A stretch of 32,000 nucleotides of DNA from Candidatus Saccharimonadota bacterium (lineage in GTDB: Bacteria; Patescibacteriota; Gracilibacteria; Absconditabacterales; Absconditicoccaceae). The stretch is from the NCBI GenBank assembly GCA_965231145.1, contig OZ246420.1, positions 450,001-482,000 on the forward strand. The letters are read 5' to 3'. Position 1 is the stretch's first letter. Every line of letters starts with the position of its first letter. Made by a program: the position numbers and the translations under genes. Shown here one piece after another: positions 3,608 to 31,512 of this stretch. The notes beneath the pieces were generated by a model. That model was not told the origin of the DNA, ran no database searches, and was given only the letters and a program-made list of their open reading frames with translations.

Positions 3608-3631
3608 TGTACATGCGGTTTCTCGCATGTG

Positions 3632-3663
3632 GTCAGCGGGTTATTATCTGCTGACTTTTTTTG
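3632..3663 (+). terminator. Rho-independent terminator, preceded by a second hairpin at 3611-3630
   Basis: Stem gtcagc ... gctgac followed by ttttttt. Just upstream is acatgcg-gtttct-cgcatgt. Confidence 0.75.
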
Positions 3664-3700
3664 TTATTTAAATCCAACTGGAAATAGATACTCTGTGTGT

Positions 3701-4741
3701 ATGAATTACGAGCGCTTTGAGCAAGCATGAAAGAAAATATTTTTGGTAGATATGAAGCAGGATAAGACGGCTTCTGGTTTTTCGTCGTTGGCTGATGGTG
3801 GGATTCGTAAGATGCTTGCTACAGGTAAGAAAGTATTGATCATTGCCAATAAGAAATGATATGCCACGGGTATGCTGTGCGATGACTGCGGGTATATTCC
3901 CAAATGCGACCACTGTGACATTCCTGTCGCGTTTCATCAAGATGAGAACCAGCATCTGTACGGTATTTGTCATATCTGCAAGAAGCACTACCCTGCATTT
4001 GGCGAATGTCCGCAATGCCGCTGACACAATATTCATCTCTATGGAAAAGGCGTGCAGAAACTGGAGACGATTTTGGGTAAAGAGTTTGGTACGAAGAAGA
4101 TCCTGACGATTGAGTCTGAAACCGCTGGTAGTATGCCGAAGGTAAAAAAGATCTTGCAGCAACTGCCTGAGACACAGATCATTATTGGTACATCTCTCCT
4201 CATGACTCCTCCGGCAGGTCGAAAGCCAGATCTTGTGGTGGTCATGAACGCTGATAGCTCGCTACATATTCCTGACTACAAATCACATGAAAAAGCATTT
4301 TCTACTCTCAAGACGATTATTGATAATTATCCCGATAATATCATTGTCCAATCATATCACGTAGACAATCCCGCGATACGCTTTGCATGCAGCGGTGATA
4401 CGGACGCGTTCCGCGTCCGAGAGGATCAATTTCGCAAAGATCATAGCTATCCTCCATATAGTCAGCTCGCGGTGCTTTTGTTCAAAAATGAGATCGAACA
4501 GAAGATGTTTACGACAGTCAACAAACTCTATCAAGAACTTCTGTTTCTCAATGAGCAGCAAAAAGCCGGCATCGAAATCTATGCGACGCCGCCACTTGTC
4601 TACAAGATGCACGATAAGTACAGATATAACATTGTGCTCAAAGGCAAAGAACTTCGTCCTTTCCTTGACCGTGCATTTGACCAACTCAACATCTTTTGAC
4701 GCGGCTTCAAGATAGACCGGATGCCGGAATCACTGATTTAA
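3701..4741 (+). CDS. priA: Primosomal protein N-prime (PriA), C-terminal piece only (346 aa)
   Basis: Table 25 joins 3701-4051 to track ORF 4052-4699 and reads on to the TAA at 4739-4741. Four in-frame TGAs lie at 3728, 3857, 4022 and 4697. Recognisable features are LVDMK, NKK-G-YA, four CxxC pairs (CDDC, CDHC, CHIC, CPQC), YPPYSQL and a C-terminal KIDRMPESLI. Nothing upstream of LVDM is present here, and there is no Shine-Dalgarno sequence. Confidence 0.75.
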
Positions 4742-6633: not shown

Positions 6634-8931
6634 ATGGATATAAAGCAATATATAAGCGGACAGTTGAACGCAGAGCAGACAGGTGCAGCCCTTCATACTG
6701 ATACATCATCACTCATCCTTGCGGGTGCGGGTTCCGGAAAGACAAGAGTGCTCACCTATAAGATAGCATATCTTTTGTATGAGAAAAAAATAAAACCAGA
6801 CCAGATCTTGGCGGTTACTTTCACCAACAAAGCTGCAAAGGAGATGAAAGAACGTCTTGTGAAAATTTCAGAAGAAATTTCGACAACTCAAAACTCAAAT
6901 CACAAAACTCAAAACTCCCCCGCCGAATCAGTCATGGATTTTGATTCATTGGTTTCTGGAGTTCAGGAGGCTACCTCAGTTGCCTCTTCTTCACTCCCTC
7001 ATTTCAATGCTACTTCATTCAAATGGATAGGAACCTTTCACGGTATGTTTCTTCGTTTTCTTAAAGAAGAGATGAAGCATGCTGAAGGCTTTGGGTATAA
7101 CGGAAGCTTTGGTGTCTATGATGAGCAGGAAGCGCAGTCTGTCATGAAAGATATCATCAAGCAGCTCAAGATGGAAGAAGATGTCGAGCTTAGAGAGGTA
7201 AGATCATTTATTTCAAAACTGAAAAGTCAGGGTATTACTGCGAAGCAGTTTGGTCATGGTAACGATGGCTACGAGCAAACCATGGGTATGATCTATGAGC
7301 TTTATGAAAAAAAACTCAGGGAAAATAATAGTTGTGACTTTGATGATCTGTTGCTCCTTCCCTATCTTATCCTCAAGAAATATCCAGAGATTGCTCAGCG
7401 CTGGCAAAAGAAATTTTCATATATTCTTGTCGATGAGGCGCAGGACACAAACTGGATTCAATTCGAACTCATGAAACTACTGACAGCCGGTGGTAGCAAT
7501 ATCACCTTCATCGGTGATGATTACCAAAGTATTTACCGCTGGCGCGGTGCCGTCATGGAAAACTTCCTCCAGGTAAAAAGGATACGGCCGGATATTGAGA
7601 TCTATAAGCTCCAGACAAATTATCGTTCTCGTCCACACATTGTGAACGCAGGTAATTTCATCATTAAAAATAATAAGAACCAGTACGATAAGACGGTCGT
7701 TCCGCACCGTTCTGGGGAAGAAAAGATTATGATTTTTAACCACGGAGATGAAACTGATGAGGCTATGACACTCATCGATCTTATGAAGAAGATGAAGACT
7801 GATAAAAATAAGTCACGAGCAGACTTCGCTATCCTCTATAGGACGAATGCACAGTCAGCGATCTTTGAGCAGGTGCTTTTGCAGGAAGCTATCCCCTATA
7901 AGGTCTTTGGATGATTTAAGTTCTTTGAAAGAAAAGAAGTAAAAGACATTATCTCATATTTGAAATACTTATTGAATCCCAGAGATACTGTAGGTCTTAA
8001 GAGAATCATCAATACGCCAAAGAGAAAGATATGATCGGATAGCGTTGCTAAACTTGAGGAATATGCGGCTGCGCATGATGTCTTATTGTCAGATGTGGTG
8101 GAACAGATCGACACGCAGCCGGTGACTATCGGGCCTGCGACACAAAAAGCAGTCAGCCAATTTGCAACTTCTATGAAGTTTCTCAGGCAGGCCGCAGCAG
8201 GACTCTCCCCCGCAAAGCTTATAGAGCAGATCGTGAAGACGATCAAATATAGAGACTATTTGATCGATGCAGAAGGTCGTGAAACAGGCGAGGAAAAGTT
8301 TGAAAATATCGGTCAGCTTATCAATATCGCCACAAGATACGACAGCGATGAGGTCGAAGAGCTCCAAAATGGCATGGTGCTTCTGACGCAGTTTCTCGAG
8401 GAAGTGTCGTTGATGACGGATATCGAAGATAATAATGAGTGAGAGTTAGAAGCAGTGAAACTGATGAGTATCCATTCGAGTAAGTGACTGGAGTTTCCTG
8501 TTGTCTTCATCGTAGGCCTGGAAGAAAATATCTTCCCATTGGCAAAGGCAGTGTTTGAGGAAGCTGAGCTTGAAGAGGAAAGACGTCTCATGTATGTTGC
8601 TATCACACGTGCAAAAGACCATCTCTTTATGTCTCATGCAAATAGCCGTAAACAGTGGTGACAAACTAAGTATAACGAGCCATCACGTTTCATTGAAGAG
8701 ATTCCCGAAGAACTGAAGAAAATGTTTGATCTGACTGCGGCGTCAGGAGCCACCAGAGCAACGAGCCGTTATGCGGTACAAACTACCCTCGAAGAAGGCG
8801 ATGTAGTCAAACATAAACTCTTTGGTATGGGTGTGGTCATCGAAGTATGGCGTGACACCGCAGTCGTCAGATTCCAAAACGAAAAGTTCGGTGTCAGAAA
8901 GATAGAAGCAAGATTCTTAGAAAAGAAATAA
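6634..8931 (+). CDS. pcrA: ATP-dependent DNA helicase PcrA/UvrD (765 aa)
   Basis: Track ORFs 6634-7914, 8086-8442 and 8722-8931 share one frame and are joined through TGAs at 7912, 8032, 8440, 8485 and 8659. Motifs seen are [42 protein letters not shown] and YVAITRAK. A low-complexity insert lies at about 6883-7010. Confidence 0.9.
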
Positions 8932-8946
8932 GGAAAAACAGTGACC

Positions 8947-8978
8947 AAGAAGAGACGTGCCGCGGCACGTCTCTTCTT
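8947..8978. terminator. Bidirectional terminator between convergent genes
   Basis: Perfect 15-bp stem aagaagagacgtgcc-gc-ggcacgtctcttctt. Confidence 0.8.
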
Positions 8979-8999
8979 GTATGTAGTATCTATCATTTC

Positions 9000-11250: not shown

Positions 11251-12420
11251 TTAATTCGGTAGAGCCCATCGTGAACTATACTCATCTGACCATGCAAATG
11301 AAAATGTTGGATCGAAAGGATAAATAAGCTTTCAGTCCAGAGAGATAAGTTTCGCCTGGAGTCCGTCACGAAGGAGAATACATCTTATATTGCTTTGATT
11401 TTTGCCTGCCTCACAGAGCTCTGTTCGACTATGCTGGGTACTTTCTTTGATTGCTCATGCTTTTTGCAAGCATGTATAACTTGTTCCGCACTCTTCATGC
11501 TTCTCACTCGCTTCGGTGATGAGCTGTAATTGTATCTCAAACAGAGCTTTTCACCATGCTCTTTTTGCTTCAGATTCATCTTCGTTTGCAAGATTGGTAT
11601 ATCTGTCGTATCGCAGCGTAGCACTCTTCAAATGCTGTCCGGCTCTTCCATACACCAATGCGGCAAGTGTTGGCGTCAATGCAGGTGCATCATCATGAAA
11701 CGCAGAGATTCTATACTGCTCTGCTGCATGCTCACTGTCAGCAAGATACGTAAAGTAATTAAACGCCATATAATGCGGCAACTCATAGTTCATGCAAGGA
11801 TTTTCGATTTCCATATTTCATTCTGCTCTTTGCTCTTTGCTCTTTCAGTTTAATACTATGAACTCTTCTTCGGTGAGTCCTGTAATAACTTTAATCTTAT
11901 CTTCATTGCATAAATAATATTCTCATTTCTTTGCAAGGCGTATTGCCTCCTCTCGAGACTTTTCCTGCGATTGATTATAATGACCGCTTGCGGTCTCCCG
12001 CTGTAGCGGGGTTTTTGGTAAAGGAATAATGAGTTGTCCAAATATGTATGGATAGTTCCAAAAGGGCGATAAGGTGGTGAGAGAATCGAGAACCGTTGCG
12101 ACGCCATTGTTGTCGAGTGTGTCGGGGTTTGTACCGATGTACTGGATGCTCCCAAGCCATAAGATGTCAGCATAGAGTTGTTGCCGAGGCATGAACTGAC
12201 AGAGCTTTTGGTTTGTATGACAGTATTCGTTATATGCAGGAAGCATGGGGGTTTGGAAAATAGCATGCGGCTTTTGTCTTTGTGTTTCAAGATGTGCGAC
12301 ATACGGCATAGGATTGATGCTTTCAGTCAGATGGCTTGCTTTTTGTGTGCGCACAAAAACACTGTTGTAACTTACAACAAGCGCAAGTGATATGGTTATG
12401 ATTCATACAGATTTCCGCAT
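11251..12420 (-). CDS. Signal-anchored orphan protein (389 aa)
   Basis: Track ORFs 11923-12354 and 11551-11814 plus their flanks form one frame with 7 TGAs. The N-terminus MRKSVGIITISLALVV is hydrophobic. An in-frame ctgctcttt-word module lies at 11821-11848. Every codon was checked through to the TAA at 11251. Confidence 0.6.
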
Positions 12421-13554: not shown

Positions 13555-15033
13555 TTAGTTAGTAAGTTCTTCCGTATTAATACTCTCAAATACCTCTTTC
13601 AAATCTGCTTCGGCTTTGAGCTCAAAGCCTTTGAGATATTTTGCTAAGTAAGGCTTTTTCTTAATAAGATCTCCGAGTGACTTCATAAGGAAGTCATAAT
13701 CCCCCGCTTTTGGATAGACGTATGTACGAGGATCTAAAAGACCAGTCGGTCTGATGATCTGTTCTACGACCTGATCACTATGATCAATCTCGTATTGAGA
13801 TGGTGTCGCAGAGACAAAGAGAGTTTTTGGAGCTTTCTTGATCTTATCTTTTTGGTAATTTGCGAGATCGTGTTGCTCCCATCTCATCGTCGTTGAGAGC
13901 TCTTCAAAGTTTAGAGGACGATGATCTGCAGCCGATGGTAAACGAAATCCGTGCTCTATAAGCGATCTCTTTCTTGCTTTATCTCCTTCCGGCATAGCAC
14001 GGAGCTGAGGTACAGACATGTGGGACTCGTCGACGATCATCAACATGTCGTCTGGGAAATAGTCGAAAATGGTATATGGAGCTTGTCCCGGTTGTCTCTT
14101 ATCGAAGTAGATACTGTAATTTTCGATACCGTTCACAAAGCCAGTTTCTTTGATCATTCTGATATCGTACATAACACGCTTTCCTATTCTATGAGCTTCG
14201 ATATCTTTACCTGCTTTCTTGAGTTCATCTACTCTATATTTCATCTCAGCTTCTATGGCTTTGAGGATGTTCTCTAAGTCTGACATGTCTTGCAGATATT
14301 GAGAACTTGGCCAGATAAGACACTTTTGCACATTGCCGAGAGCCTTAAATGAGACCGCGTCTTTGCTTTCTATGATCTCGAGCTTATCTTCGTTGAAGTG
14401 CATGCGGTAGATCACGTTTTCAATAGACGCATAGACATCGAGCAGCTCTCCTCTCAGGTCAAAAGTTCCTGGCTCGATTTTGCTCTGCATGGGCTTGTAT
14501 TGCATGGCAATAAGCTGGCGTTTGATAGTGTCGCGGTCGTAGGTTTTCCCTACTTCAAAGTAGATACTATGTTTTTGAAAATACTCTTTTTGTCCGAGAC
14601 CGTAGAGAGATGAGACCGATGAAACAACGATAACGTCTTCGCGAGTCAGGAGCGAAGCCAATGTACCAAGACGGTACATCTCTATTTCTTTGTTGATAGT
14701 TGCTTCTTTCTCGATGTACATGTCCTTATCTGCAAGATATGCTTCCGGCTGATAGTAGTCGAAGTAACTCACGAAATAGTGCACGGCATTGTGCGGGAAA
14801 AAATATTTGAACTCGGTTGCGAGCTGTGCAGCAAGTGTCTTGTTGTGCGAAATAACAAGCGTTGGCTTCTGGAGTTTTTGTATGACGTTGGCCATGGTAA
14901 ACGTCTTACCAGTACCTGTCGCACCAAGAAGCGTGATCGCTTTTTCGCCATTTTGAAAACCTCCCACAATTTTTTCGATTGCTTGTGGCTGGTCTCCTTG
15001 CGGTTGATATGCTGATTCGAGCTGAAATGACAT
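13555..15033 (-). CDS. uvrB: Excinuclease subunit UvrB, C-terminally truncated form (492 aa)
   Basis: GATGTGKT, YYQPEAY, IVDESH and EQIIRPTGLLDP are present. The ORF ends at a TAA about 40 aa after RPTGLLDP. Helicase motifs IV-VI and the UVR domain are absent. Confidence 0.85.
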   Translation of the reverse strand: MSFQLESAYQPQGDQPQAIEKIVGGFQNGEKAITLLGATGTGKTFTMANVIQKLQKPTLVISHNKTLAAQLATEFKYFFPHNAVHYFVSYFDYYQPEAYLADKDMYIEKEATINKEIEMYRLGTLASLLTREDVIVVSSVSSLYGLGQKEYFQKHSIYFEVGKTYDRDTIKRQLIAMQYKPMQSKIEPGTFDLRGELLDVYASIENVIYRMHFNEDKLEIIESKDAVSFKALGNVQKCLIWPSSQYLQDMSDLENILKAIEAEMKYRVDELKKAGKDIEAHRIGKRVMYDIRMIKETGFVNGIENYSIYFDKRQPGQAPYTIFDYFPDDMLMIVDESHMSVPQLRAMPEGDKARKRSLIEHGFRLPSAADHRPLNFEELSTTMRWEQHDLANYQKDKIKKAPKTLFVSATPSQYEIDHSDQVVEQIIRPTGLLDPRTYVYPKAGDYDFLMKSLGDLIKKKPYLAKYLKGFELKAEADLKEVFESINTEELTN

Positions 15034-15095
15034 GCCTCTTTTCTAGTGAGGTAAATAGACAGTATGGTAATAGGGAAAATTAGCATTTTTGCAAT

Positions 15096-18407: not shown

Positions 18408-19523
18408 TTATTTAGTAATTATGACAATCTGTCTTCCGACCTTCTGCTTTGGTCTCTTATAGACCTCAGGTAAGAACTCATAATTAATCTTACGGTCATT
18501 ACACCACTCTTCCAAGCTTTCTTTCACGTAGCTCGATGTTCAAAGGTGGATTGGTATCGTAAATACTGCTACTATCTTGTCGTAAAATGTATCAATATTT
18601 TCTAGAAATGCCTTATAGAGTTTCACGATTTCATCCTGTGCTTTGAAAATTTCTTTTTCTGATGTTCTATCGGTAATGATAGGACCAAGCCATCCTTCGC
18701 TTGCTATAACTTGTACGCTCTTAAGAAATGGTTTCTTTCGTGACTCAAAAATATCATGTTTAAATGTCGTGATTCTCTTGTCTGCATGAGCATATTTCTG
18801 CTCCAGCCATCGATCAGCATTTCTTTTCATCGCAGTGATTTCTTTGTCTGATGCGATACAATCATATCCGAGTGCATTTGCCAGAAATGCTGTTGTTCCT
18901 AGTCCTACAAACGGATCATATATGGTCACGTTATTAAATCATAACTCCTTTCATTCTCAATTTGAAGTGCTCAATTCTCAATCCTTATTTAATGTAGAAT
19001 TTAGAATTCAGAATTTAGAATTAGTAAGTTGTGACACTCAAATATTAATGAGCATAAGAGCGAGTTTAGACGGCATCATGCCAATATTCATGCTGTTGAC
19101 TGGCTTGTCAAAGTCGATGGTTTCATAGAGAGCAATGTCTTGGTAGCCAGTTACTTCAATGACTTCTGATTGCTCATTGAGGTCTTCATAGCTTCCTACC
19201 AGGATATACTCTTTTCCTTTCTCGCGAACTTCCATATCGGTCTGATCCAGATCAACTTCTTTAAATCTTCTGGTCAGTCATTTTCCTTTCAGATACTTTC
19301 CTACTGCTCTTTCCGATACTCCGCACAGCTCTGGTACCTCTGAGAGCTCTTCGAGCTTTTTTACTTCTCATCGTTTGATGAGGCCTCCGAGGGAGGCAAG
19401 TTTTTGAGGTGAATTAGTGCTGAAAAGAGCAATATGTCACTGTACGTGAAGATTTTCCGGTTGCACGAGCTCCAGTTCTTTCAGTGAAATTGTTCTATTT
19501 TTCCCAAGGATTGCTCCGTACAT
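18408..19523 (-). CDS. Putative SAM-dependent RNA methyltransferase (UPF0020/Trm11-like, 371 aa)
   Basis: One frame with about 10 TGAs. The SAM motif I is IYDPFVGLGTTAFLANALGYDCIASD, preceded by MPSKLALMLINI. A roughly 35-aa low-complexity insert encoded by 18939-19037 separates the two. Confidence 0.6.
18939..19037. repeat. In-frame word-repeat module (attctca / agaattt words)
   Basis: Sequence is tcattctcaatttgaagtgctcaattctcaatcc...gtagaatttagaattcagaatttagaatt. It is translated as GVSQLTNSKFGILNSTLNKDGELSTSNGEGKELGF, contains 7 TGAs and has no TAA or TAG. Confidence 0.65.
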
Positions 19524-19545
19524 ATTTTCTTTTAAACCTATAAAA

Positions 19546-19602
19546 GCAGCTCGCAGATTGCAGTTAGCAAGTAGCAGACTCTATGCTAGCTGCCAATTGC
19601 TA
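19546..19602. repeat. Word-repeat imperfect palindrome (family A, second copy)
   Basis: Its reverse complement aligns with 134-196. The first 17 nt are identical, then ctgctacttgctaactgc aligns with ctgctagttgctacctgc. Confidence 0.6.
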
Positions 19603-19759
19603 TATGCGAATAAGAATAGTGAATAAGCCATTTTTTTCAAGTAAGAAAAAACCCCAGCACGCAGTCCGTCAACGTTATCTAGGGTTTTTATATTGTAGAA
19701 AGATTCTACCTGTTCTATCAGATGATAGCTCACTATCATCTATCAAAGATTGTGTATTT

Positions 19760-21007: not shown

Positions 21008-21066
21008 GATACAGATACAGATGACAGATACAGTAGTTAGCGTATCGGTATCTTGTATCAGTATCT
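21008..21066. repeat. GATAC-word element (family B, copy 1)
   Basis: gatacagatacagatgacagatac-N16-gtatcttgtatcagtatct. Both arms are identical to those at 30018-30067. Confidence 0.7.
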
Positions 21067-21097
21067 TTTTTAAAAGTAAGTGAGTATGTAAGTTTTG

Positions 21098-24737: not shown

Positions 24738-24839
24738 GTATAAAGTAATAAAGTATAATAGTTTGGCAATTAGATATTGGATTTTAGATATTAGCACGAT
24801 GCTATAATCTACCATCTATAATCTATAATCTGATTGCTG
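24738..24839. repeat. Word-repeat imperfect palindrome (tagatatt / ataatcta words)
   Basis: Left arm ggcaattagatattggattttagatattagca, centre cgat, right arm gctataatctaccatctataatctataatctgattgctg. It shares the 14-mer tgctataatctacc with 179-192. Confidence 0.55.
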
Positions 24840-26469: not shown

Positions 26470-26563
26470 ATAGGAAAACGTCATAAAAGTTCATAAAGTG
26501 GAAGGTTTATAAAGTTGAAAGTTCAAAGGAATTTTAACTTTATACTTTACAAACTTTATGAAC
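26470..26563. repeat. Word-repeat imperfect palindrome (cataaagt / actttat words) overlapping the priA-N stop codon
   Basis: The 11-nt arm gttcataaagt (26489-26499) is a perfect inverted repeat of actttatgaac (26553-26563). The latter contains the TAA that ends the priA N-terminal piece. Confidence 0.6.
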
Positions 26564-27359
26564 TAAATATTTGTACTCCGGTCATTTCGAGTCTCGCCTC
26601 ATGTAATTGGGCAATTTTTTTCATAATTTCGCGTGTATCGTAGCGAGGATCTTGCTGGCTTTTATAGTATCGTTGGTGACTATCCATAAGCGTAATGAGT
26701 TTAAGATCTTTTCGATCCTGAAATACCTGAGATGATGTACAAATAAGTGTATTTACATGACCCATTTTGATTCCCCATCGAGCTTTGTCTTTCTGCTGCT
26801 GTGTCGAAGTGCTGTTGAGTATGACAATGCCTGATTTTTCAACTATTCCTCGCTTTTCGAGCGTGTTTATCATAGTTCGGACGTCAGGGAAGACGATAAG
26901 TTGTTGTCCCTCCATATTATTTTGAATTTTGAATTCTATATTTTGAATTATTTTTGTATCTGTATCTTGTATCTGTATCTTAGGGAAAAAAGGCTTCTTT
27001 TTGACCGTAAGTTCTTTCTTAAATAAGTCTGCTAATTCTCCTGTTACAAATAACTTTACGACATTTTTATAAGATGTATAATACTCCTTCACCATTCGTC
27101 TTATCAATTCTACAGTTTCTTTGCTGAGAAATCATTTATGATGCAAGGTTAGCTCTTCAGTAATTTTCGATTTCGGAGTCAATTCTGCTCTCTGCTCTTT
27201 GAATTTTGATTTCCCCTCATTTCCTCGTTTCCTCGTTTCCTCGATAACAAGAAACATATCGTGAGAGCCAACTAATAAGTCTCACACCAAAAAATTATCT
27301 TGGTCTGTTCGACAAAGCTTATCTCCGCCATATCGTCACTGGAAGGCGTATAATAACAT
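26556..27359 (-). CDS. priA: Primosomal protein N-prime (PriA), N-terminal piece only (267 aa), helicase motifs degenerate
   Basis: Track ORF 26556-27107 extends upstream through TGAs at 27132, 27282 and 27336 to the ATG at 27357-27359. LIRRMVKEYYTSY and QQLIVFPDV...RWGIKMGHVNTLICTSSQVF...LMDSHQRYYKSQQDPRYDTRE follow the PriA pattern. There is no GxGKT, and DEEH is replaced by MDSH. The ORF stops where the 3701-4741 piece begins. Confidence 0.65.
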
Positions 27360-27364
27360 ACTTA

Positions 27365-27472
27365 CTTAAAATGGTGTAAAATGGTGTAATACTTCGTGTG
27401 TAACAATAGTGTAATATTGATATGTGACTATGTTACACAATCATTACACGATATTACACAGATTGTGTGTCA
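27365..27472. repeat. Long word-repeat palindrome (four gtgtaa words, then four ttacac words)
   Basis: Sequence is ggtgtaaaatggtgtaatacttcgtgtgtaacaatagtgtaatattgatatgtgactatgttacacaatcattacacgatattacacagattgtgtgt. It can fold as a long imperfect hairpin. Confidence 0.65.
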
Positions 27473-27796: not shown

Positions 27797-29995
27797 TTAT
27801 TCTTTCATAGCCTCTATCACCTCAGGTATAAACTCTTCCAATGGAATATTGAGGAAAGTCTCACAATTTCTGAGGTGTTCTCTGCTCACACCAGCGGCAA
27901 ACTTGCTATCTTTGATCTTTTTCATGACCGATTTCACCTCCATACCCTCGAAACCTTCTGGCCTCATAAGTGAGTATGCATAAAGGAATCCAGAAAGCTC
28001 ATCGACTGAGGCCAGATATCTTCTGATAAGAAGATCGACTGGGACTCCGGTTTTCTCGTGGTAGTGAGAACGTATGTCGTCGATAAGTGCCTGTGGTAAA
28101 TTGATTTCTCCTACGATAGTATGAAACTCATCCCCCAGATGTTTATCGGCATCTTTCCCAATATGATCCCAGTCTACATCGTGCAATAGTCCTGCAAGAT
28201 ACCAGACATCTTCATCCTGACCAAGCTTTTTCGCAAAATAATGCATCACCTTTCCAACCTGTTCGCAGTGCTTGCGAGTCTCTGTCAGATATTTATCTGC
28301 AAGTGCCTGTGAATCGCTAATAGAGGGTATATTTTCATATGAGACTTCTCTGTCTGTATGTATTGGTGTAACTGAACCTTCTTTATTTGATTCTGAACTT
28401 TGATTTTTGCTTTCTGAATTTCAATGAAGTGGTTTCATCATAGGGAAAAGTATAACATCACGGATGTTTGACTGCTCGGTGAGTAATGCGAAAATACGGT
28501 CAATTCCCATACCCCAACCAGATTGTGGAGGCATACCGTATTCCATAGCTTGAACAAACTCAGGGTCTCCTGATGTTGCTTCTTCGTCTCCTGCGGCAAG
28601 CGCTCATGCCTGTGCATCAAAATTAGCCTGCTGCTCTATTGGATCGACAAGCTCTGAATATGCTTTGATCACCTCCCATCCATTGATAAGAAGCTGCCAC
28701 TGTTCTACTATGTTTTTGTCGCTATCGCTTGTGCGCGCAAGAGGCTGCATCAGTTTTGGATAGTTGACGATGAAGGCCGGACCGACGATCTTAGGTCTTG
28801 TCACCTTTTTGTAGAGGTAGTCGATCATCGTTGTCAGACCTTGCTTATCCATCCCTTCCCAGCTATGACCTGCTGCTTTGATGTCAGCTCTGAGTTTCTC
28901 GTCATCTCCTTCCTTATATGCGCCCACGTCTATTCATGAGTCTTTCTTGATCTGGTCAACATAATTGACGCGCTGCCATGGTGTCTGAAATGATACAGAC
29001 TTAGATACTCCTTGTTTATCCACAACATTGATCGTCTGCTGAAGTTCTGGGATATTTGCAAAGATGTAGTTGAACATCTCTTCAGTAAACTTCATATTAT
29101 CTTCATGATTCCAATACGCAGCATAGTGCTCGATCATCGTGAATTCCTGATGATGACTTGGATCTGATCATTCATTGCGGAAATCTTTCGCTACTTCAAA
29201 TACCTTTTCTAACATTCCGACAGTAGCTTTCTTGAGGTTCGTTTCTGGGGAAATTCTCAGGTACATATCGAGATCAAAGTCATGGTGATGTGTTACGAAG
29301 GGCTTCGCCGCTGCCCCAGAGGCAGAGTTTCCAAGCACTGGTGTCTCAATTTCTATAAAACCTTTATTCCAATAGAAATCTCTTATCGTCTTCATAAATT
29401 TTGCACGAAGCTTCATTCTATCGAGCGATTCTCTATTGAAGATCATATCGAGATATCTTTGTCTGTATGCTCTTTCCTGGTCTTCTCCGATCCCATGAAA
29501 TTTGTCACCAAGCGGCTGTATCGCCTTTGCGAGAAATGTATAATTTGTCACGAACAATGTAAGCTCTCCCTTATGTGTCACAAAAAGCTCTCCCTCTACT
29601 CAGATGAAGTCACCAACATCTACCAGTTTTTCCAATATCTTATATGCGGTCATTTCTAATTCCTCCTTGTTTGATTGTGCTTTGTGACCTGTGCTTTGTG
29701 AATTGATAACGCAGTTATCCTTGTGAAACATAAGTTGAATCTCTCCAGACTCATCCAATAACTTTCAAAAAGAAAGTTTACCATGACTTCTGAAAAGAGT
29801 GAGCCTTCCGGCCGTTTTATACTGATTTTTTGGAGCAGGAATAATTTCTTCTACATCGCGGAAACTTTCACCTTCCTTTCCCAGAAGATCGCTGATCATC
29901 GATGTCTTATCATACTTTTGTGCATAAGGATTTATCCCCAATGAACGGAGTGTTTCCACTTTCTGTTTTCTTACTTCATATTCTGAAAGAGCCAT
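27797..29995 (-). CDS. lysS: Lysyl-tRNA synthetase (class II) fused in frame to a C-terminal HD-superfamily domain (732 aa)
   Basis: Track ORFs 29765-29995, 29168-29581, 28934-29137, 28604-28927 and 27797-28249 share one frame with TGAs at 29765, 29602, 29168, 28934, 28604 and 28421. [13 protein letters not shown] and ILFPMMK are present. A linker then leads into [32 protein letters not shown] checked every triplet and found no TAA or TAG. Confidence 0.85.
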
Positions 29996-30017
29996 TTATC
30001 ATCATAACATAATTAAA

Positions 30018-30067
30018 GATACAGATACAGATGACAGATACGGTCTCAGTATCTTGTATCAGTATCT
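30018..30067. repeat. GATAC-word element (family B, copy 2)
   Basis: gatacagatacagatgacagatac-N7-gtatcttgtatcagtatct, 23 nt upstream of the lysS ATG. Confidence 0.7.
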
Positions 30068-30181
30068 ATTGGAATAATGCTTTATTCTATATAGAAAGCT
30101 GGCTTATTTTCAACCAGAACCCATGTTAAATAAGAGATAAAAGATAATAAATAAAAAATATTTCTTATCTCTCATTTTTAT

Positions 30182-31135
30182 TTATAAGAAATAATGTTTA
30201 TACGTTACATTCTCTTTCGGCTTCGTATTCGCTTCAAGGATGTATCTACGAAACCGAGTTCTTTGTTTCTTTGCAAAGTAATGTGTGTTTTTCTTGAGTT
30301 CCTCTTCGAGCGTCTCTCTGCCATATTTCCCTTGCCGATAGAGTACGGTTTCCTTATAGCCGATGCCATTCATCGCTTGATGCTCCAACGTATATCCTTG
30401 CTTCATCAGTCATTGGACCTCTTCTAGTAGTCCTGTCTGGAGCATCTCTTTAATACGGCAATTGATACGCTTATTGCTGTCGTCTTTTTCACGCCAGAGA
30501 CCGATCATGAGTAATGGCTGCTTGACTGGCATCTCATTGGCAAGTGAGGTCTTAGTCTTACCAGTTTTTTCATATATTTCCAAAGCACGGATGATATATC
30601 TCGTACTATTTGGATGGTGTTTATTTGCTTCTTCGGGATCTATTTCTTGTAATCTTTTTCGAAGGATCCCTGGTTCTTTTTCCTCTTCAGCAGACCATTT
30701 GTCGCGAAGTGGCATATCTGCTTCGATATCAGGCATCTCAAAGTTTTTGTAGATCATATCAATATAAAGCCCCGTTCCTCATACGATAAGTGGGATATTG
30801 CCTCTTGCTATGATCTCTGGTATGAGTCTGTCGGTTGCTGTTCTTCGCTGTCCAGCAGTATACGTCTCATCAGGATTGACAATATCTATCTGATGGTGAG
30901 GAACTTTCTGACGAATCTCTTCAATTACTTTATCTGTCCCAATGTCCATAAAACGAAAAATCTGACGTGAGTCAGCTGAAATGATTTCTACCGGAAAATG
31001 TTCCGCTAATAAAAGAGAAAGCTTGCTTTTCCCTGTCGCAGTCGCTCACCGTATCACTACAGCGCCTGTTGGATTGCTTTCGTGAAAAGTCTGAATTGTT
31101 TTTTTTGCATCCTCTAGGATGTCAGATACTTCCAT
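30182..31135 (-). CDS. miaA: tRNA dimethylallyltransferase MiaA (317 aa)
   Basis: Joined through TGAs at 31046 (P-loop G-ATATGKS), 30779 (LIV-G-GTGLY) and 30410. SADSRQIFRFMDIGTDK is present. The frame was checked and ends in TAA. Confidence 0.9.
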
Positions 31136-31137
31136 TA

Positions 31138-31512
31138 TTAGTCGGGGTCTTTTTGTGCTAATAGTAATTTTGCAATTTGAGCTTGGTCGGGAAATAATTT
31201 TTCGATAAGGTATATCATATAAGCTGCTGCTTTATCAGGAGGATAATAGTAATTTAACCTAGCTCTTATCTTCATAGCATTACGCCTTATACGTTCTCTC
31301 TGCTCCCTAGTTCGAGGAAGTGTGAGAAATTGTTCTTGGAATTGATCATACCAGCCCTGCTCTATCATAACAAAACACATATGCAATCTGTTTTTACCAA
31401 TGTGTTCATCAGCAAGCAGTAATTCAATGGTTTGGTCCGGTTGCTGTTGAATGCGCCCAAGAAGTGTATCTGATATATCTATAAGACCTGTATTCACCTG
31501 TGCCTCAACCAT
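31138..31512 (-). CDS. Orphan protein (124 aa)
   Basis: Intact ORF whose TAA lies 2 nt upstream of the miaA ATG, suggesting translational coupling. I recognise no family. Confidence 0.5.
   Translation of the reverse strand: MVEAQVNTGLIDISDTLLGRIQQQPDQTIELLLADEHIGKNRLHMCFVMIEQGWYDQFQEQFLTLPRTREQRERIRRNAMKIRARLNYYYPPDKAAAYMIYLIEKLFPDQAQIAKLLLAQKDPD

What the first reader, a model, noticed from the sequence alone, without database searches (positions are those of the whole stretch)
18939..19037. Low-complexity word-repeat modules inserted in frame inside at least six ORFs
Stretches of 25-100 nt built from 6-10-nt words repeated with small variations sit inside coding sequences. They preserve the reading frame and never create TAA or TAG. 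They encode hydrophilic linkers at positions where the protein families normally have nothing. The RNA methyltransferase carries one at 18939-19037, between the substrate-binding part and SAM motif I, and it includes 7 UGA-Gly codons. PcrA carries one at about 6883-7010 ([17 protein letters not shown]...). LysRS carries one at 29676-29701 ([12 protein letters not shown]), and the LysRS-HD linker at 28385-28425 is another. The priA N-terminal piece carries two, at 26917-26980 and 27181-27243. The signal-anchored orphan carries one at 11821-11848. The same kinds of words fill the intergenic spacers. The behaviour recalls the Rickettsia palindromic elements, which insert in frame into genes, but these sequences are different and to my knowledge undescribed.
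Basis: seen in the sequence. Interest (0 to 1): 0.7.

Follow-up and report, generated by a model that had tools for sequence, protein, structure and literature searches.

The report
In-frame heptamer word repeats in genes
A UGA=glycine (SR1/Absconditabacteria) bacterium carries many short tandem arrays of 7-base "words", and some sit in frame inside flexible loops of essential proteins. This is a lineage-specific form of a known repeat class, not yet shown to be a new mobile element.

Summary
The window uses genetic code 25 (UGA=Gly). It holds 24 short tandem arrays against 6.6±2.5 in shuffles, and ten have a 7-nt unit against 0.73 expected. Twelve arrays lie inside genes.

The flagged segment is an 84-nt in-frame insert (about 18936-19019, minus strand) in a Trm11-like tRNA methyltransferase. 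It lies in the loop just before SAM motif I. It is absent from the four closest homologues and from a syntenic relative. It consists of two mutually inverted heptamer arrays, the same design as the intergenic "word hairpins".

The PcrA, LysRS, priA-N and orphan modules are also confirmed. However, they sit in loops that already vary in length across the phylum, not at sites that are normally empty.

The words form a small repertoire: AACTCAR, AGAGCAR, AATTCAA, CACAAAG and GATACAG hairpins. This repertoire recurs at different loci and in related genomes. At one PcrA site, two relatives carry different words in the same register.

Best reading: these are lineage-specific heptanucleotide simple-sequence arrays. 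They arise by slippage or template switching with some copying between loci, and they are translated as tolerated linkers. Membership of the Rickettsia palindromic element family or of MITEs is not supported. True mobility remains open, because the whole genome could not be read.

The parts
18936..19019 (-). 84-nt (28-codon) in-frame insert in a Trm11-like tRNA methyltransferase (ORF 18408-19523). It lies between the helix ...MMPSKLALMLINIG and strand beta1/motif I (TIYDPFVGLGT). It contains 5 UGA-Gly codons.
   Evidence: Codon view. DNA and protein alignments with L001-L003 and 29 homologues. The site maps to loop 163-170 of the AF2 model of P0001.
18991..19022 (-). Arm 1 of the methyltransferase insert: (AATTCTN)x4.6.
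   Evidence: TRF. It pairs with arm 2 in the predicted fold.
18953..18982 (-). Arm 2 of the methyltransferase insert: (ATTGAGA)x4.3. This is the reverse complement of AATTCTC, so it is an inverted copy of the arm 1 word.
   Evidence: TRF. RNA fold -19.5 kcal/mol, z -1.35.
6885..6917 (+). (AACTCAA)x4.7 array in PcrA, between helicase motifs Ia and Ib. It encodes [12 protein letters not shown].
   Evidence: TRF. PDB alignment gap against 2pjr. Relative L126 carries (AGAGCAR)x3 in the same register.
11824..11845 (-). (AAGAGCA)x3.1 perfect array in a membrane-anchored orphan protein. It encodes KSKEQRA.
   Evidence: TRF. Orthologue alignment. L133 has (AACTCAG)x4 at the same site.
26919..26981 (-). 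Two adjacent arrays, (AATTCAA)x4.4 and (GATACAGATACAA)x2.2. They make up most of a 27-aa insert in the PriA N-terminal-like ORF.
   Evidence: TRF. The insert is absent from L002 and L128. The GATACA word is shared with intergenic hairpins.
27184..27243 (-). (AGAGCAG)x2.1 and (CGAGGAAA)x3.6 arrays in a 12-aa insert of the PriA N-terminal-like ORF.
   Evidence: TRF. Alignment. The flank ATTCTGCTCT is shared with the orphan array (family D2).
29675..29700 (-). (CACAAAG/CACAGGT)x3.7 array in the OB (anticodon-binding) domain of LysRS. It encodes [11 protein letters not shown].
   Evidence: TRF. PDB alignment gap. The loop varies in length in 16 relatives.
28385..28425 (-). Degenerate A-rich heptamer words (AATTCAG AAAGCAA AAATCAA AGTTCAG) in the LysRS-HD interdomain linker.
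   Evidence: Codon view. TRF does not flag it. The linker is 10 aa longer than in the closest relative, P0213.
21008..21067 (.). Intergenic GATACA 'word hairpin' in the ftsA-ftsZ spacer.
   Evidence: TRF. DNA fold z -3.75. The arms are identical to the copy at 30017-30075 (families D1/D8).
30017..30075 (.). Second copy of the GATACA word hairpin, in the miaA-lysS spacer.
   Evidence: (z -3.41).
19553..19604 (.). GCAGCTAGCA-type word hairpin upstream of the methyltransferase gene. An inverted homologue lies at 130-181.
   Evidence: the repeat finder pair I1, 52 nt, 71% complementary. Fold z -1.82 and -2.14.
24765..24835 (.). Word hairpin (TTAGATA / CTATAAT words) in the uppS-dnaN spacer.
   Evidence: TRF. 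Fold z -2.04. It shares TGCTATAATCTACC with 179-199 (family D3).
27367..27460 (.). Word hairpin (TAAAATGGTG / TTACACAATCA words) upstream of priA-N.
   Evidence: TRF. Fold -15.2 kcal/mol, z -2.65.

Best explanation
These are lineage-specific tandem arrays of A-rich heptanucleotide words. They belong to the 'long simple-sequence repeat' class known from other bacteria.

How they form (inferred): replication slippage and template switching create the arrays and turn them over. Fold-back copying would produce the inverted-array hairpins. Units or whole arrays are occasionally copied between loci.

Where they survive: in spacers they accumulate freely, often as hairpins. Inside genes only some copies persist. 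A surviving copy must have a net length divisible by three and be free of TAA/TAG in all three frames. It must have the A-rich strand as the sense strand, so that it encodes hydrophilic residues. It must also lie in a surface loop or interdomain linker that already tolerates length variation. Surviving copies are simply translated as extra linker residues and probably have no function of their own.

Role of the code: because UGA means glycine here, TGA-containing words such as ATTGAGA and AATTCTGA can be carried in frame. This makes the 28-codon methyltransferase insert possible.

Shown: the arrays, their excess over chance, their insertion status, their loop location, word sharing between loci and genomes, and strand bias. 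Inferred: the slippage and template-switch mechanism, translation of the inserts, and lack of function.
For: - Excess of arrays, especially period 7: 24 against 6.6, and 10 against 0.73. Several are perfect, which suggests recent duplication.
- All four window-specific insertions of 5 aa or more relative to the syntenic relative L002 overlap arrays.
- Homologous arrays evolve unit by unit in a fixed register. At the PcrA site the window has AACTCAA|AACTCAA|ATCACAA|AACTCAA. L126 has AACTCAG|AGAGCAG|AGAGCAA|AGAGCAA, with the same length and the same seed ACAACTCA. At the orphan site the window and L133 share the seed AAACT(C/G)A and then diverge. This is the pattern of satellite turnover.
- The host sites vary in length across the phylum. 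A distant lineage fills the same methyltransferase loop with its own AATGACA words.
- The insertion site is a helix-to-strand loop in a model with pLDDT 94.7. The PcrA and LysRS sites are gaps in alignments to solved structures.
- All 8 single-arm coding arrays have the A-rich strand as sense. Intergenic words often contain TAA. Both point to selection on the peptide.
- Flanking domains stay conserved and in frame: 65% identity to P0001 over the full length.
- Published background: heptanucleotide repeats are the most abundant long simple-sequence repeat class in many bacteria, and a polymerase-slippage origin has been proposed (PMC4679880 and PMC4692102, both summarising Mrazek et al. 2007).
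Against: - Independent local slippage cannot explain two GATACA hairpins whose arms are identical, including the irregular unit GATGACA. They lie 9 kb apart in the window. Two more lie at different positions in relative L133.
- It also does not explain AGAGCAR arrays at four or more non-homologous loci in 41.5 kb, plus a different locus in L126.
- Word sharing between genomes exceeds chance, P about 0.001-0.004. It does not reflect a universal preference for that word: in IMG/VR, AGAGCAA arrays occur in 14 contigs against 27, 16 and 5 for controls of the same composition.
- Inverted array pairs need more than simple slippage.
- Arrays of three to five heptamers in essential genes would be lethal on a change of one unit, so a high slippage rate would be costly.
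- Translation of the inserts has not been demonstrated.
Confidence: 0.55

Rival explanations
1. The modules are copies of very small non-autonomous mobile or duplicative elements. These would resemble Rickettsia palindromic elements, MITEs or the small dispersed repeats of cyanobacteria. They would insert into spacers and, in frame, into genes, and the arrays would be their cargo or their decayed remains.
For: - There are dispersed families with long identical stretches: the GATACA hairpins at 21008-21067 and 30017-30075, and a one-arm copy inside priA-N at 26954-26981.
- The same hairpin family sits at other positions, flanking smpB, in relative L133.
- GCAGCTAGCA hairpins lie at 130-181 and 19553-19604 in opposite orientation.
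- The methyltransferase insert has the same two-inverted-arm design as the intergenic hairpins.
- A limited word repertoire is shared across loci and genomes.
Against: - No terminal inverted repeats distinct from the arrays and no target-site duplications are visible; only an AAT triplet occurs at both junctions of the methyltransferase insert.
- There is no second copy of the methyltransferase insert in 41.5 kb.
- Most coding modules are single unstructured arrays of 15-33 nt.
- Orthologous arrays differ by unit turnover in a fixed register, not by presence or absence of a whole element.
- No transposase candidate was seen in the window.
- Genome-wide copy numbers could not be obtained.
Confidence: 0.25
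2. The arrays are functional. In one version the RNA or DNA words are binding sites, for example for an S1/CSP-type or other sequence-specific factor, or they act as promoter or mRNA-stability elements. In another version the encoded heptad-periodic hydrophilic peptides are selected linkers.
For: - A restricted word set is reused in related genomes.
- Intergenic hairpins sit in spacers within co-directional gene strings, as REP elements do.
- Some intergenic words resemble -10 boxes, such as TGCTATAAT and TGTGTAAT.
- Coding arrays show a strict sense-strand bias.
- A regulatory role has been proposed for TAACTGA heptamer repeats in Beggiatoaceae (PMC4679880).
Against: - The arrays are not conserved at orthologous positions, even between genomes of about 80% nucleotide identity.
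- The closest relatives lack the inserts and keep intact proteins.
- The hairpins are not terminator-like and match no Rfam family.
- Coding arrays show no predicted structure.
Confidence: 0.1
3. The methyltransferase insert is not translated. Either it is bypassed by ribosome hopping between the two AAT codons that flank it, as with T4 gene 60 or the mitochondrial 'byp' elements, or the gene is a pseudogene or split gene.
For: - The hairpin-forming insert is flanked by identical AAT codons.
- UGA density is unusual: 5 of 28 codons against 0.70% genome-wide.
Against: - The insert is exactly 28 codons long and open in frame under code 25.
- No stop or unassigned codon follows the putative take-off site.
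- All other modules are in frame too, which bypassing would not require.
- Both halves of the protein are conserved and collinear with orthologues.
- A 3-nt repeat at the junctions is expected by chance.
Confidence: 0.04
4. The modules are assembly or sequencing artefacts.
For: Two Logan contigs end exactly at 11821, at the edge of the orphan array.
Against: - Three independent assemblies of separate runs are 100% identical across the methyltransferase, priA and LysRS modules, and a fourth contig confirms the PcrA module.
- Logan contigs also break at an ordinary palindrome, 8946-8979.
- Relatives carry comparable arrays.
Confidence: 0.02

Closest known systems
Heptanucleotide long simple-sequence repeats of bacteria. 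Examples are the STRR heptamers of heterocystous cyanobacteria, TAACTGA repeats of marine Beggiatoaceae, and GGGAATC/GGGGAYT repeats of Xanthomonas and Nostoc.
   Same: - Short tandem arrays of 2-6 units of 7-nt words.
- A few favoured words per lineage, recurring at many loci.
- Strong over-representation against chance.
- Frequent inverted pairs that can form stem-loops.
- Extensive length and sequence variation between close relatives.
- Mechanism unknown, with slippage proposed (PMC4679880, PMC4692102).
   Different: - The described cases are essentially intergenic. TAACTGA cannot be read through in the forward orientation.
- Here about half of the arrays, and 7 of 10 heptamer arrays, lie in frame inside conserved genes.
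- The words are A-rich and stop-free, and there are several related words rather than one.
- The host is a code-25 Patescibacterium, where TGA-containing words are translatable.
Rickettsia palindromic elements (RPE)
   Same: Insertion in frame into conserved protein genes as well as spacers. The encoded peptides are hydrophilic and surface-located. The host protein stays intact. The methyltransferase insert is palindromic. (Properties of RPEs are from my own knowledge and from mentions in PMC1779305 and PMC10969869.)
   Different: - RPEs are 100-150 bp elements with a conserved family consensus present in tens of copies.
- The modules here are 15-84 nt and built of tandem heptamers, and most are not palindromic.
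- The methyltransferase insert has no second copy in the 41.5 kb read.
- There is no sequence similarity.
Low-complexity, lineage-specific insertions in conserved proteins of A+T-rich genomes, for example Plasmodium (own knowledge)
   Same: Hydrophilic, repetitive, rapidly evolving segments confined to loops or linkers of otherwise conserved proteins. They are thought to arise by slippage and to be largely neutral.
   Different: Those are mostly triplet or homopolymer-codon repeats (Asn/Lys runs). Here the DNA unit is 7 nt, so the peptide period is 7 aa and all three frames are read. The same words also build intergenic hairpins.
REP/BIME-type intergenic palindromes of enterobacteria (own knowledge)
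   Same: The intergenic word hairpins are short imperfect palindromes. They are dispersed in spacers inside co-directional gene strings and are not Rho-independent terminators.
   Different: The arms are made of tandem words. The hairpins are A+T-rich. No RAYT-like transposase was seen. Copy number is unknown.

Membership tests
Heptanucleotide long simple-sequence repeats (STRR-like) | Head-to-tail copies of a 7-nt unit, 2 or more copies, in excess over chance | tested here: met
   10 period-7 arrays against 0.73 in shuffles.
Heptanucleotide long simple-sequence repeats (STRR-like) | A few lineage-favoured words recurring at many loci | tested here: met
   AGAGCAR occurs at 4 or more loci, GATACAG at 3, and AATTCAA/AACTCAR at several. 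Words are shared with L126 and L133, P about 0.001. This covers only 41.5 kb of a 1.1-Mb genome.
Heptanucleotide long simple-sequence repeats (STRR-like) | Predominantly intergenic location | tested here: not met
   7 of 10 heptamer arrays are in coding sequence. The density per base is still several-fold higher in spacers.
Rickettsia palindromic elements | Dispersed family with a conserved consensus of 100-150 bp in many copies | tested here: not met
   The modules are 15-84 nt. The methyltransferase insert arms are unique in 41.5 kb. Genome-wide copy number was not testable.
Rickettsia palindromic elements | Palindromic structure | tested here: inconclusive
   The methyltransferase insert folds as an imperfect hairpin, but z is only -1.35 as RNA and -0.25 as DNA. 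The PcrA, LysRS, orphan and priA arrays show no structure.
Rickettsia palindromic elements | In-frame insertion in conserved genes with the host protein retained | tested here: met
MITEs | Terminal inverted repeats plus target-site duplication | tested here: not met
   No terminal inverted repeats distinct from the arrays. Only a 3-nt AAT occurs at both junctions of the methyltransferase insert.
Translational bypass elements (T4 gene 60 gap, mitochondrial byps) | Matching take-off and landing codons, a stop or unused codon after take-off, and a length not constrained to multiples of three | tested here: not met
   AAT occurs at both ends, but the next codon is TCT (Ser). The insert is exactly 28 sense codons, and all modules keep the frame.
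Trm11/THUMP-type RNA methyltransferase (host of the flagged insert) | N-terminal THUMP-like domain plus a class I SAM methyltransferase with the DPFxGxGT motif | tested here: met
   The AF2 model of homologue P0001 (pLDDT 94.7) matches Archaeoglobus Trm11 6zxw, E 7e-17, TM 0.67. The motif TIYDPFVGLGT is present. Pfam gives only a sub-threshold N6_N4_Mtase hit. Activity and substrate were not tested.
Genetic code 25 organism (Absconditabacteria/Gracilibacteria) | UGA at conserved Gly positions, and ORFs intact only if UGA is a sense codon | tested here: met
   Homologues are annotated as Absconditabacteria/SR1.

The most novel reading that the evidence does not exclude
A clade of Absconditabacteria carries a previously undescribed family of ultra-small duplicative elements. 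These are heptamer 'word' arrays and inverted array pairs drawn from a shared repertoire (A-R-N-K-C-A-R words, GATACAG hairpins). They spread between loci by transposition-like or templated-repair copying and repeatedly colonise the same permissive loops of essential genes. The UGA-to-Gly reassignment makes such colonisation survivable by removing one stop codon from the sequence space.
Probability: 0.25. Interest if true: 0.65.

Novelty: new variant of a known kind. Interest (0 to 1): 0.45.

Why it matters
If the reading is right, a non-triplet simple-sequence repeat process is a main source of new length variation in essential proteins of a reduced, recoded episymbiont genome. It also shows that stop-codon reassignment widens what can be inserted in frame.

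The finding gives a concrete, checkable case of protein loops being written by DNA-level repeat dynamics rather than by selection on the protein.

There is a practical point as well. Under code 11 these genes are called as fragments, and the inserts look like intergenic DNA.

If the arrays prove to be mobile, they would be among the smallest mobile sequences known and a new parallel to Rickettsia palindromic elements.

Tried and rejected
- Genome-wide copy number of the GATACA family. The source genome was not among the rows listed.
- Retrieval of the source genome. It exists as a 1,107,293-bp NCBI contig but could not be fetched through P0087. I extended to only 41.5 kb through Logan contigs.
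- Metagenome scan for (AGAGCAR)3. It gave 120 or more contigs of 33-69% GC, which was uninformative about the clade. Four IMG/VR scans showed the word is no commoner than controls of the same composition.
- Structure prediction of the window protein itself. I modelled homologue P0001 instead.
- Sequence search of the methyltransferase against PDB and Pfam. It gave nothing useful, so a fold search was needed.
- Word hairpins as intrinsic terminators or known RNAs. This was rejected.
- Translational bypass and split-gene readings of the methyltransferase. These were rejected on frame and conservation grounds.
- Contig breaks at 11821 as evidence of copy-number polymorphism. I judged this weak, because Logan contigs also break at an ordinary palindrome.
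- The pattern A-R-N-K-C-A-R for the words is post hoc and was not tested independently.
Full report
**1. The window and its code**

With the standard bacterial code the window breaks into fragments. Treating TGA as a sense codon roughly doubles the length of long ORFs. It restores a 776-codon PcrA, a 733-codon LysRS-HD fusion, FtsA, FtsZ, UvrB, DnaN, MiaA and others. TGA falls on conserved glycines: the MiaA P-loop gATATGKS and VgGTGLY, PcrA HSSKgLEF, and FtsA LPgG. Homologues come from Absconditabacteria/SR1.

**2. The flagged segment**

The ORF on the minus strand at 18408-19523 reads ...IGMMPSKLALMLINIgVSQLTN-SKFgILNSTLNKDgELSTSNgEgKELgF-NNVTIYDPFVGLGTTAF....

- In an alignment of 30 family members, the four closest homologues (59-79% identity) and most others have only 8-12 residues between INIG and TIYDPF. 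The window has 38.
- DNA alignment with three relatives places an 84-nt, 28-codon block at about 18936-19019.
- The block consists of (AATTCTN)x4.6, an 8-nt spacer and (ATTGAGA)x4.3. ATTGAGA is the reverse complement of AATTCTC, so the second array is an inverted copy of the first.
- As RNA the block folds into an imperfect hairpin of -19.5 kcal/mol. This is not significantly better than shuffles of the same low-complexity sequence (z -1.35).
- Five of its 28 codons are UGA. A sixth UGA just upstream replaces the GGA of the conserved Gly of INIG. UGA makes up 0.70% of codons in 20 genes of the window.

The host protein had no useful sequence match to PDB or Pfam. An AlphaFold model of the insert-free homologue P0001 (pLDDT 94.7) superposes on archaeal Trm11 m2G10 tRNA methyltransferase (E 7e-17, TM 0.67). 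The label 'RNA methyltransferase' is therefore supported. The insertion site is the short loop (residues 163-170) between helix 149-162 and strand beta1, which carries motif I.

**3. The other modules**

- PcrA has about 44 extra residues between motifs Ia and Ib compared with Geobacillus PcrA.
- LysRS has [12 protein letters not shown] in an OB-domain loop that is absent from solved LysRS structures.
- The syntenic relative L002 (50-91% protein identity) lacks the methyltransferase insert, both priA-N inserts (12 and 27 aa) and a 29-aa stretch of the orphan. No other window-specific indel of 5 aa or more is seen in 14 orthologue pairs.

Closer relatives qualify the picture.

- The variable region in PcrA is shared by the whole phylum.
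- The LysRS loop and linker vary in length in all 16 relatives examined. The window is only 5 and 10 aa longer than its nearest relative.
- Most of the 29-aa orphan stretch is present in L126 and L127, so the window-specific gain is about 5 aa.

The modules therefore lie in loops that are already permissive. The methyltransferase loop is itself a hotspot. Several distant family members carry unrelated repetitive inserts there. In one of them (L317) the insert is built from AATGACA words, again with in-frame UGA.

**4. Excess over chance and authenticity**

- The window has 24 short tandem arrays against 6.6±2.5 in 100 dinucleotide-preserving shuffles. Ten have period 7, against 0.73 expected with a maximum of 4.
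- Twelve arrays are in coding sequence and twelve in the roughly 12% of the window that is intergenic.
- Three independent assemblies from separate sequencing runs are identical to the window over 19 kb that include the methyltransferase, priA and LysRS modules. Another contig encodes the same PcrA module. The modules are not artefacts.

**5. Intergenic counterparts**

Spacers contain hairpins whose two arms are themselves tandem word arrays: GATACA/TGTATC, GCAGNTA/TAGCTGC, TTAGATA/CTATAAT and TAAAATGGTG/TTACAC. Their fold z-scores run from -1.8 to -3.75.

- The GATACA hairpin occurs twice with identical arms, at 21008-21067 and 30017-30075. The arms include an irregular GATGACA unit. A one-arm copy forms part of the priA-N insert.
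- The GCAGCTAGCA hairpin occurs twice in opposite orientation.
- These hairpins are not terminator-like and match no Rfam family.
- The methyltransferase insert has the same inverted-array design. The other coding arrays are single and unstructured.

**6. Comparison with related genomes**

Array density varies by lineage.

- Heptamer arrays are rare in L002 (1), L127 (0), L126 (2) and L128 (2).
- L133, at 78-84% nucleotide identity, has 16 arrays against 3.6 expected. These include two GATACAG hairpins flanking smpB, where the window has none.

At orthologous sites the arrays differ.

- In PcrA the window has AACTCAA units and L126 has AGAGCAR units. Both are in the same register, have the same length and start from the same seed ACAACTCA. 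L133 has no array and L127 is shorter.
- In the orphan the window has (AAGAGCA)x3 and L133 has (AACTCAG)x4 plus two further arrays. Both follow a shared seed AAACT(C/G)A.

The same few words recur at non-homologous loci.

- AGAGCAR is found in the window's orphan, in priA-N, in ValRS and upstream of ValRS, and in L126 PcrA.
- AACTCAR is found in the window's PcrA and the L133 orphan.
- AATTCAA and CACAGGTCACAA occur in both the window and L133.

All five period-7 words of the relatives lie within one mismatch of a window word, P about 0.001. Two are exact matches, P about 0.004. This is not a universal property of the word. In IMG/VR, (AGAGCAA)3 occurs in 14 contigs against 27, 16 and 5 for controls of the same composition. 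Its presence in 120 or more metagenome contigs of all G+C contents reflects the general background of heptamer repeats.

**7. Interpretation**

Several features fit simple-sequence arrays that arise and turn over by slippage or template switching and are filtered by selection when they land in genes.

- Units are replaced in a fixed register.
- Seeds are shared between orthologous arrays.
- Some arrays are perfect, which suggests recent duplication.
- Host loops are hypervariable.
- All 8 single-arm coding arrays have the A-rich strand as sense.
- Words containing TAA are confined to spacers.

Over-represented heptanucleotide repeats, lineage-favoured words, inverted pairs and rapid variation between relatives have all been described. 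Examples are cyanobacteria, Xanthomonas and Beggiatoaceae, and a polymerase-slippage origin has been proposed (PMC4679880, PMC4692102).

What differs here is the frequent in-frame residence in essential genes. The words are free of TAA/TAG in all three frames, and code 25 adds TGA-containing words to the permitted set.

Simple local slippage does not explain everything. The identical complex hairpins at different loci, the inverted arrays and the reuse of AGAGCAR at unrelated sites all imply some copying between loci. Whether that copying is gene conversion or templated repair, or true mobility, cannot be decided from 41.5 kb.

I therefore rank the simple-sequence repeat explanation first (0.55) and a mobile micro-element second (0.25). 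A functional role follows at 0.10, non-translation or bypass at 0.04, and artefact at 0.02.

**8. Comparison with known families and verdict**

The modules behave like Rickettsia palindromic elements in one respect: they are tolerated in-frame inserts. They fail the defining features of that family, which are a conserved 100-150-bp consensus, many copies and a general palindromic structure. They also fail the MITE criteria of terminal inverted repeats and target-site duplications.

They meet the definition of heptanucleotide long simple-sequence repeats except for that class's intergenic bias. Literature searches found no description of this behaviour in Absconditabacteria.

I rate it a new variant of a known kind, of moderate interest.

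Noticed in passing
whole window; e.g. 19038-19040, 30182-31231: The genome uses code 25 (UGA=Gly). Public gene calls for the same DNA under code 11 split PcrA, LysRS, MiaA, PepF and the methyltransferase into fragments (gene tables). A conserved Gly codon of the INIG motif is GGA in relatives and TGA here.
   Followed up: yes
26556-27365 (-) and 3608-4741 (+): PriA appears split into two ORFs about 22 kb apart on opposite strands. The C-terminal piece hits Pfam PriA_C and has the Cys-rich zinc motif. By eye, the N-terminal piece has degenerate helicase motifs: GSGKT becomes GELAD and DEEH becomes DSHQ. It is conserved in this form in L002 and L128.
   Followed up: partly
13555-15042 (-); L130 6566-7054: The UvrB gene in the window encodes only about 490 aa (ResIII, UvrB_inter, UvrB_3rd). 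A separate 162-aa ORF with the UvrB C-terminal and UVR domains lies about 20 kb away, beyond the window end. This may be a second split gene.
   Followed up: no
27797-29995 (-): LysRS is fused to a C-terminal HD-domain module through a variable linker. Relatives carry NUDIX or DUF2000 modules at or near the same position.
   Followed up: no
extended genome 35363-38872 (L130 2641-6150): ValRS carries about 150 extra residues between HRIPVW and DVLDTWFSS. This region includes another (CAAAGAG)x2.9 array encoding KSKSKEQR.
   Followed up: partly
11821: Logan contigs from two different runs both end exactly at the edge of the orphan heptamer array. This could reflect copy-number heterogeneity in the population, or it could simply be assembler behaviour. 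Another contig ends at the 17+17-nt perfect palindrome at 8946-8979 downstream of pcrA.
   Followed up: partly
179-199, 24800-24820, 27433-27460: Several intergenic words look like -10 promoter boxes. TGCTATAATCTACC occurs at two loci. TGTGTAAT-type extended -10 motifs are repeated on the minus strand upstream of priA-N. The word hairpins may overlap promoters.
   Followed up: no
19524-19759 vs L002 9491-9958: The syntenic relative L002 has a 155-aa gene with an ATP-synt_DE_N domain between ftsZ and the methyltransferase gene. The window has only a 236-nt spacer there, containing a GCAG word hairpin. This looks like gene loss or gain at a repeat-bearing spacer.
   Followed up: no
L317 1117-1163 and 1819-1833: A distant Absconditabacterium (38% identity in the methyltransferase) has its own AATGACA/GAAATGA word array, with in-frame UGA, in the same methyltransferase loop. 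The same word also forms an array in the downstream spacer. The process seems to be phylum-wide, with lineage-specific words.
   Followed up: partly
L133 16419-16475 and 16966-17022: In a relative, two nearly identical GATACAG word hairpins bracket smpB. One lies a few bases after the uvrB stop and the other a few bases after the smpB stop. This position resembles that of REP-like mRNA 3'-end elements.
   Followed up: no
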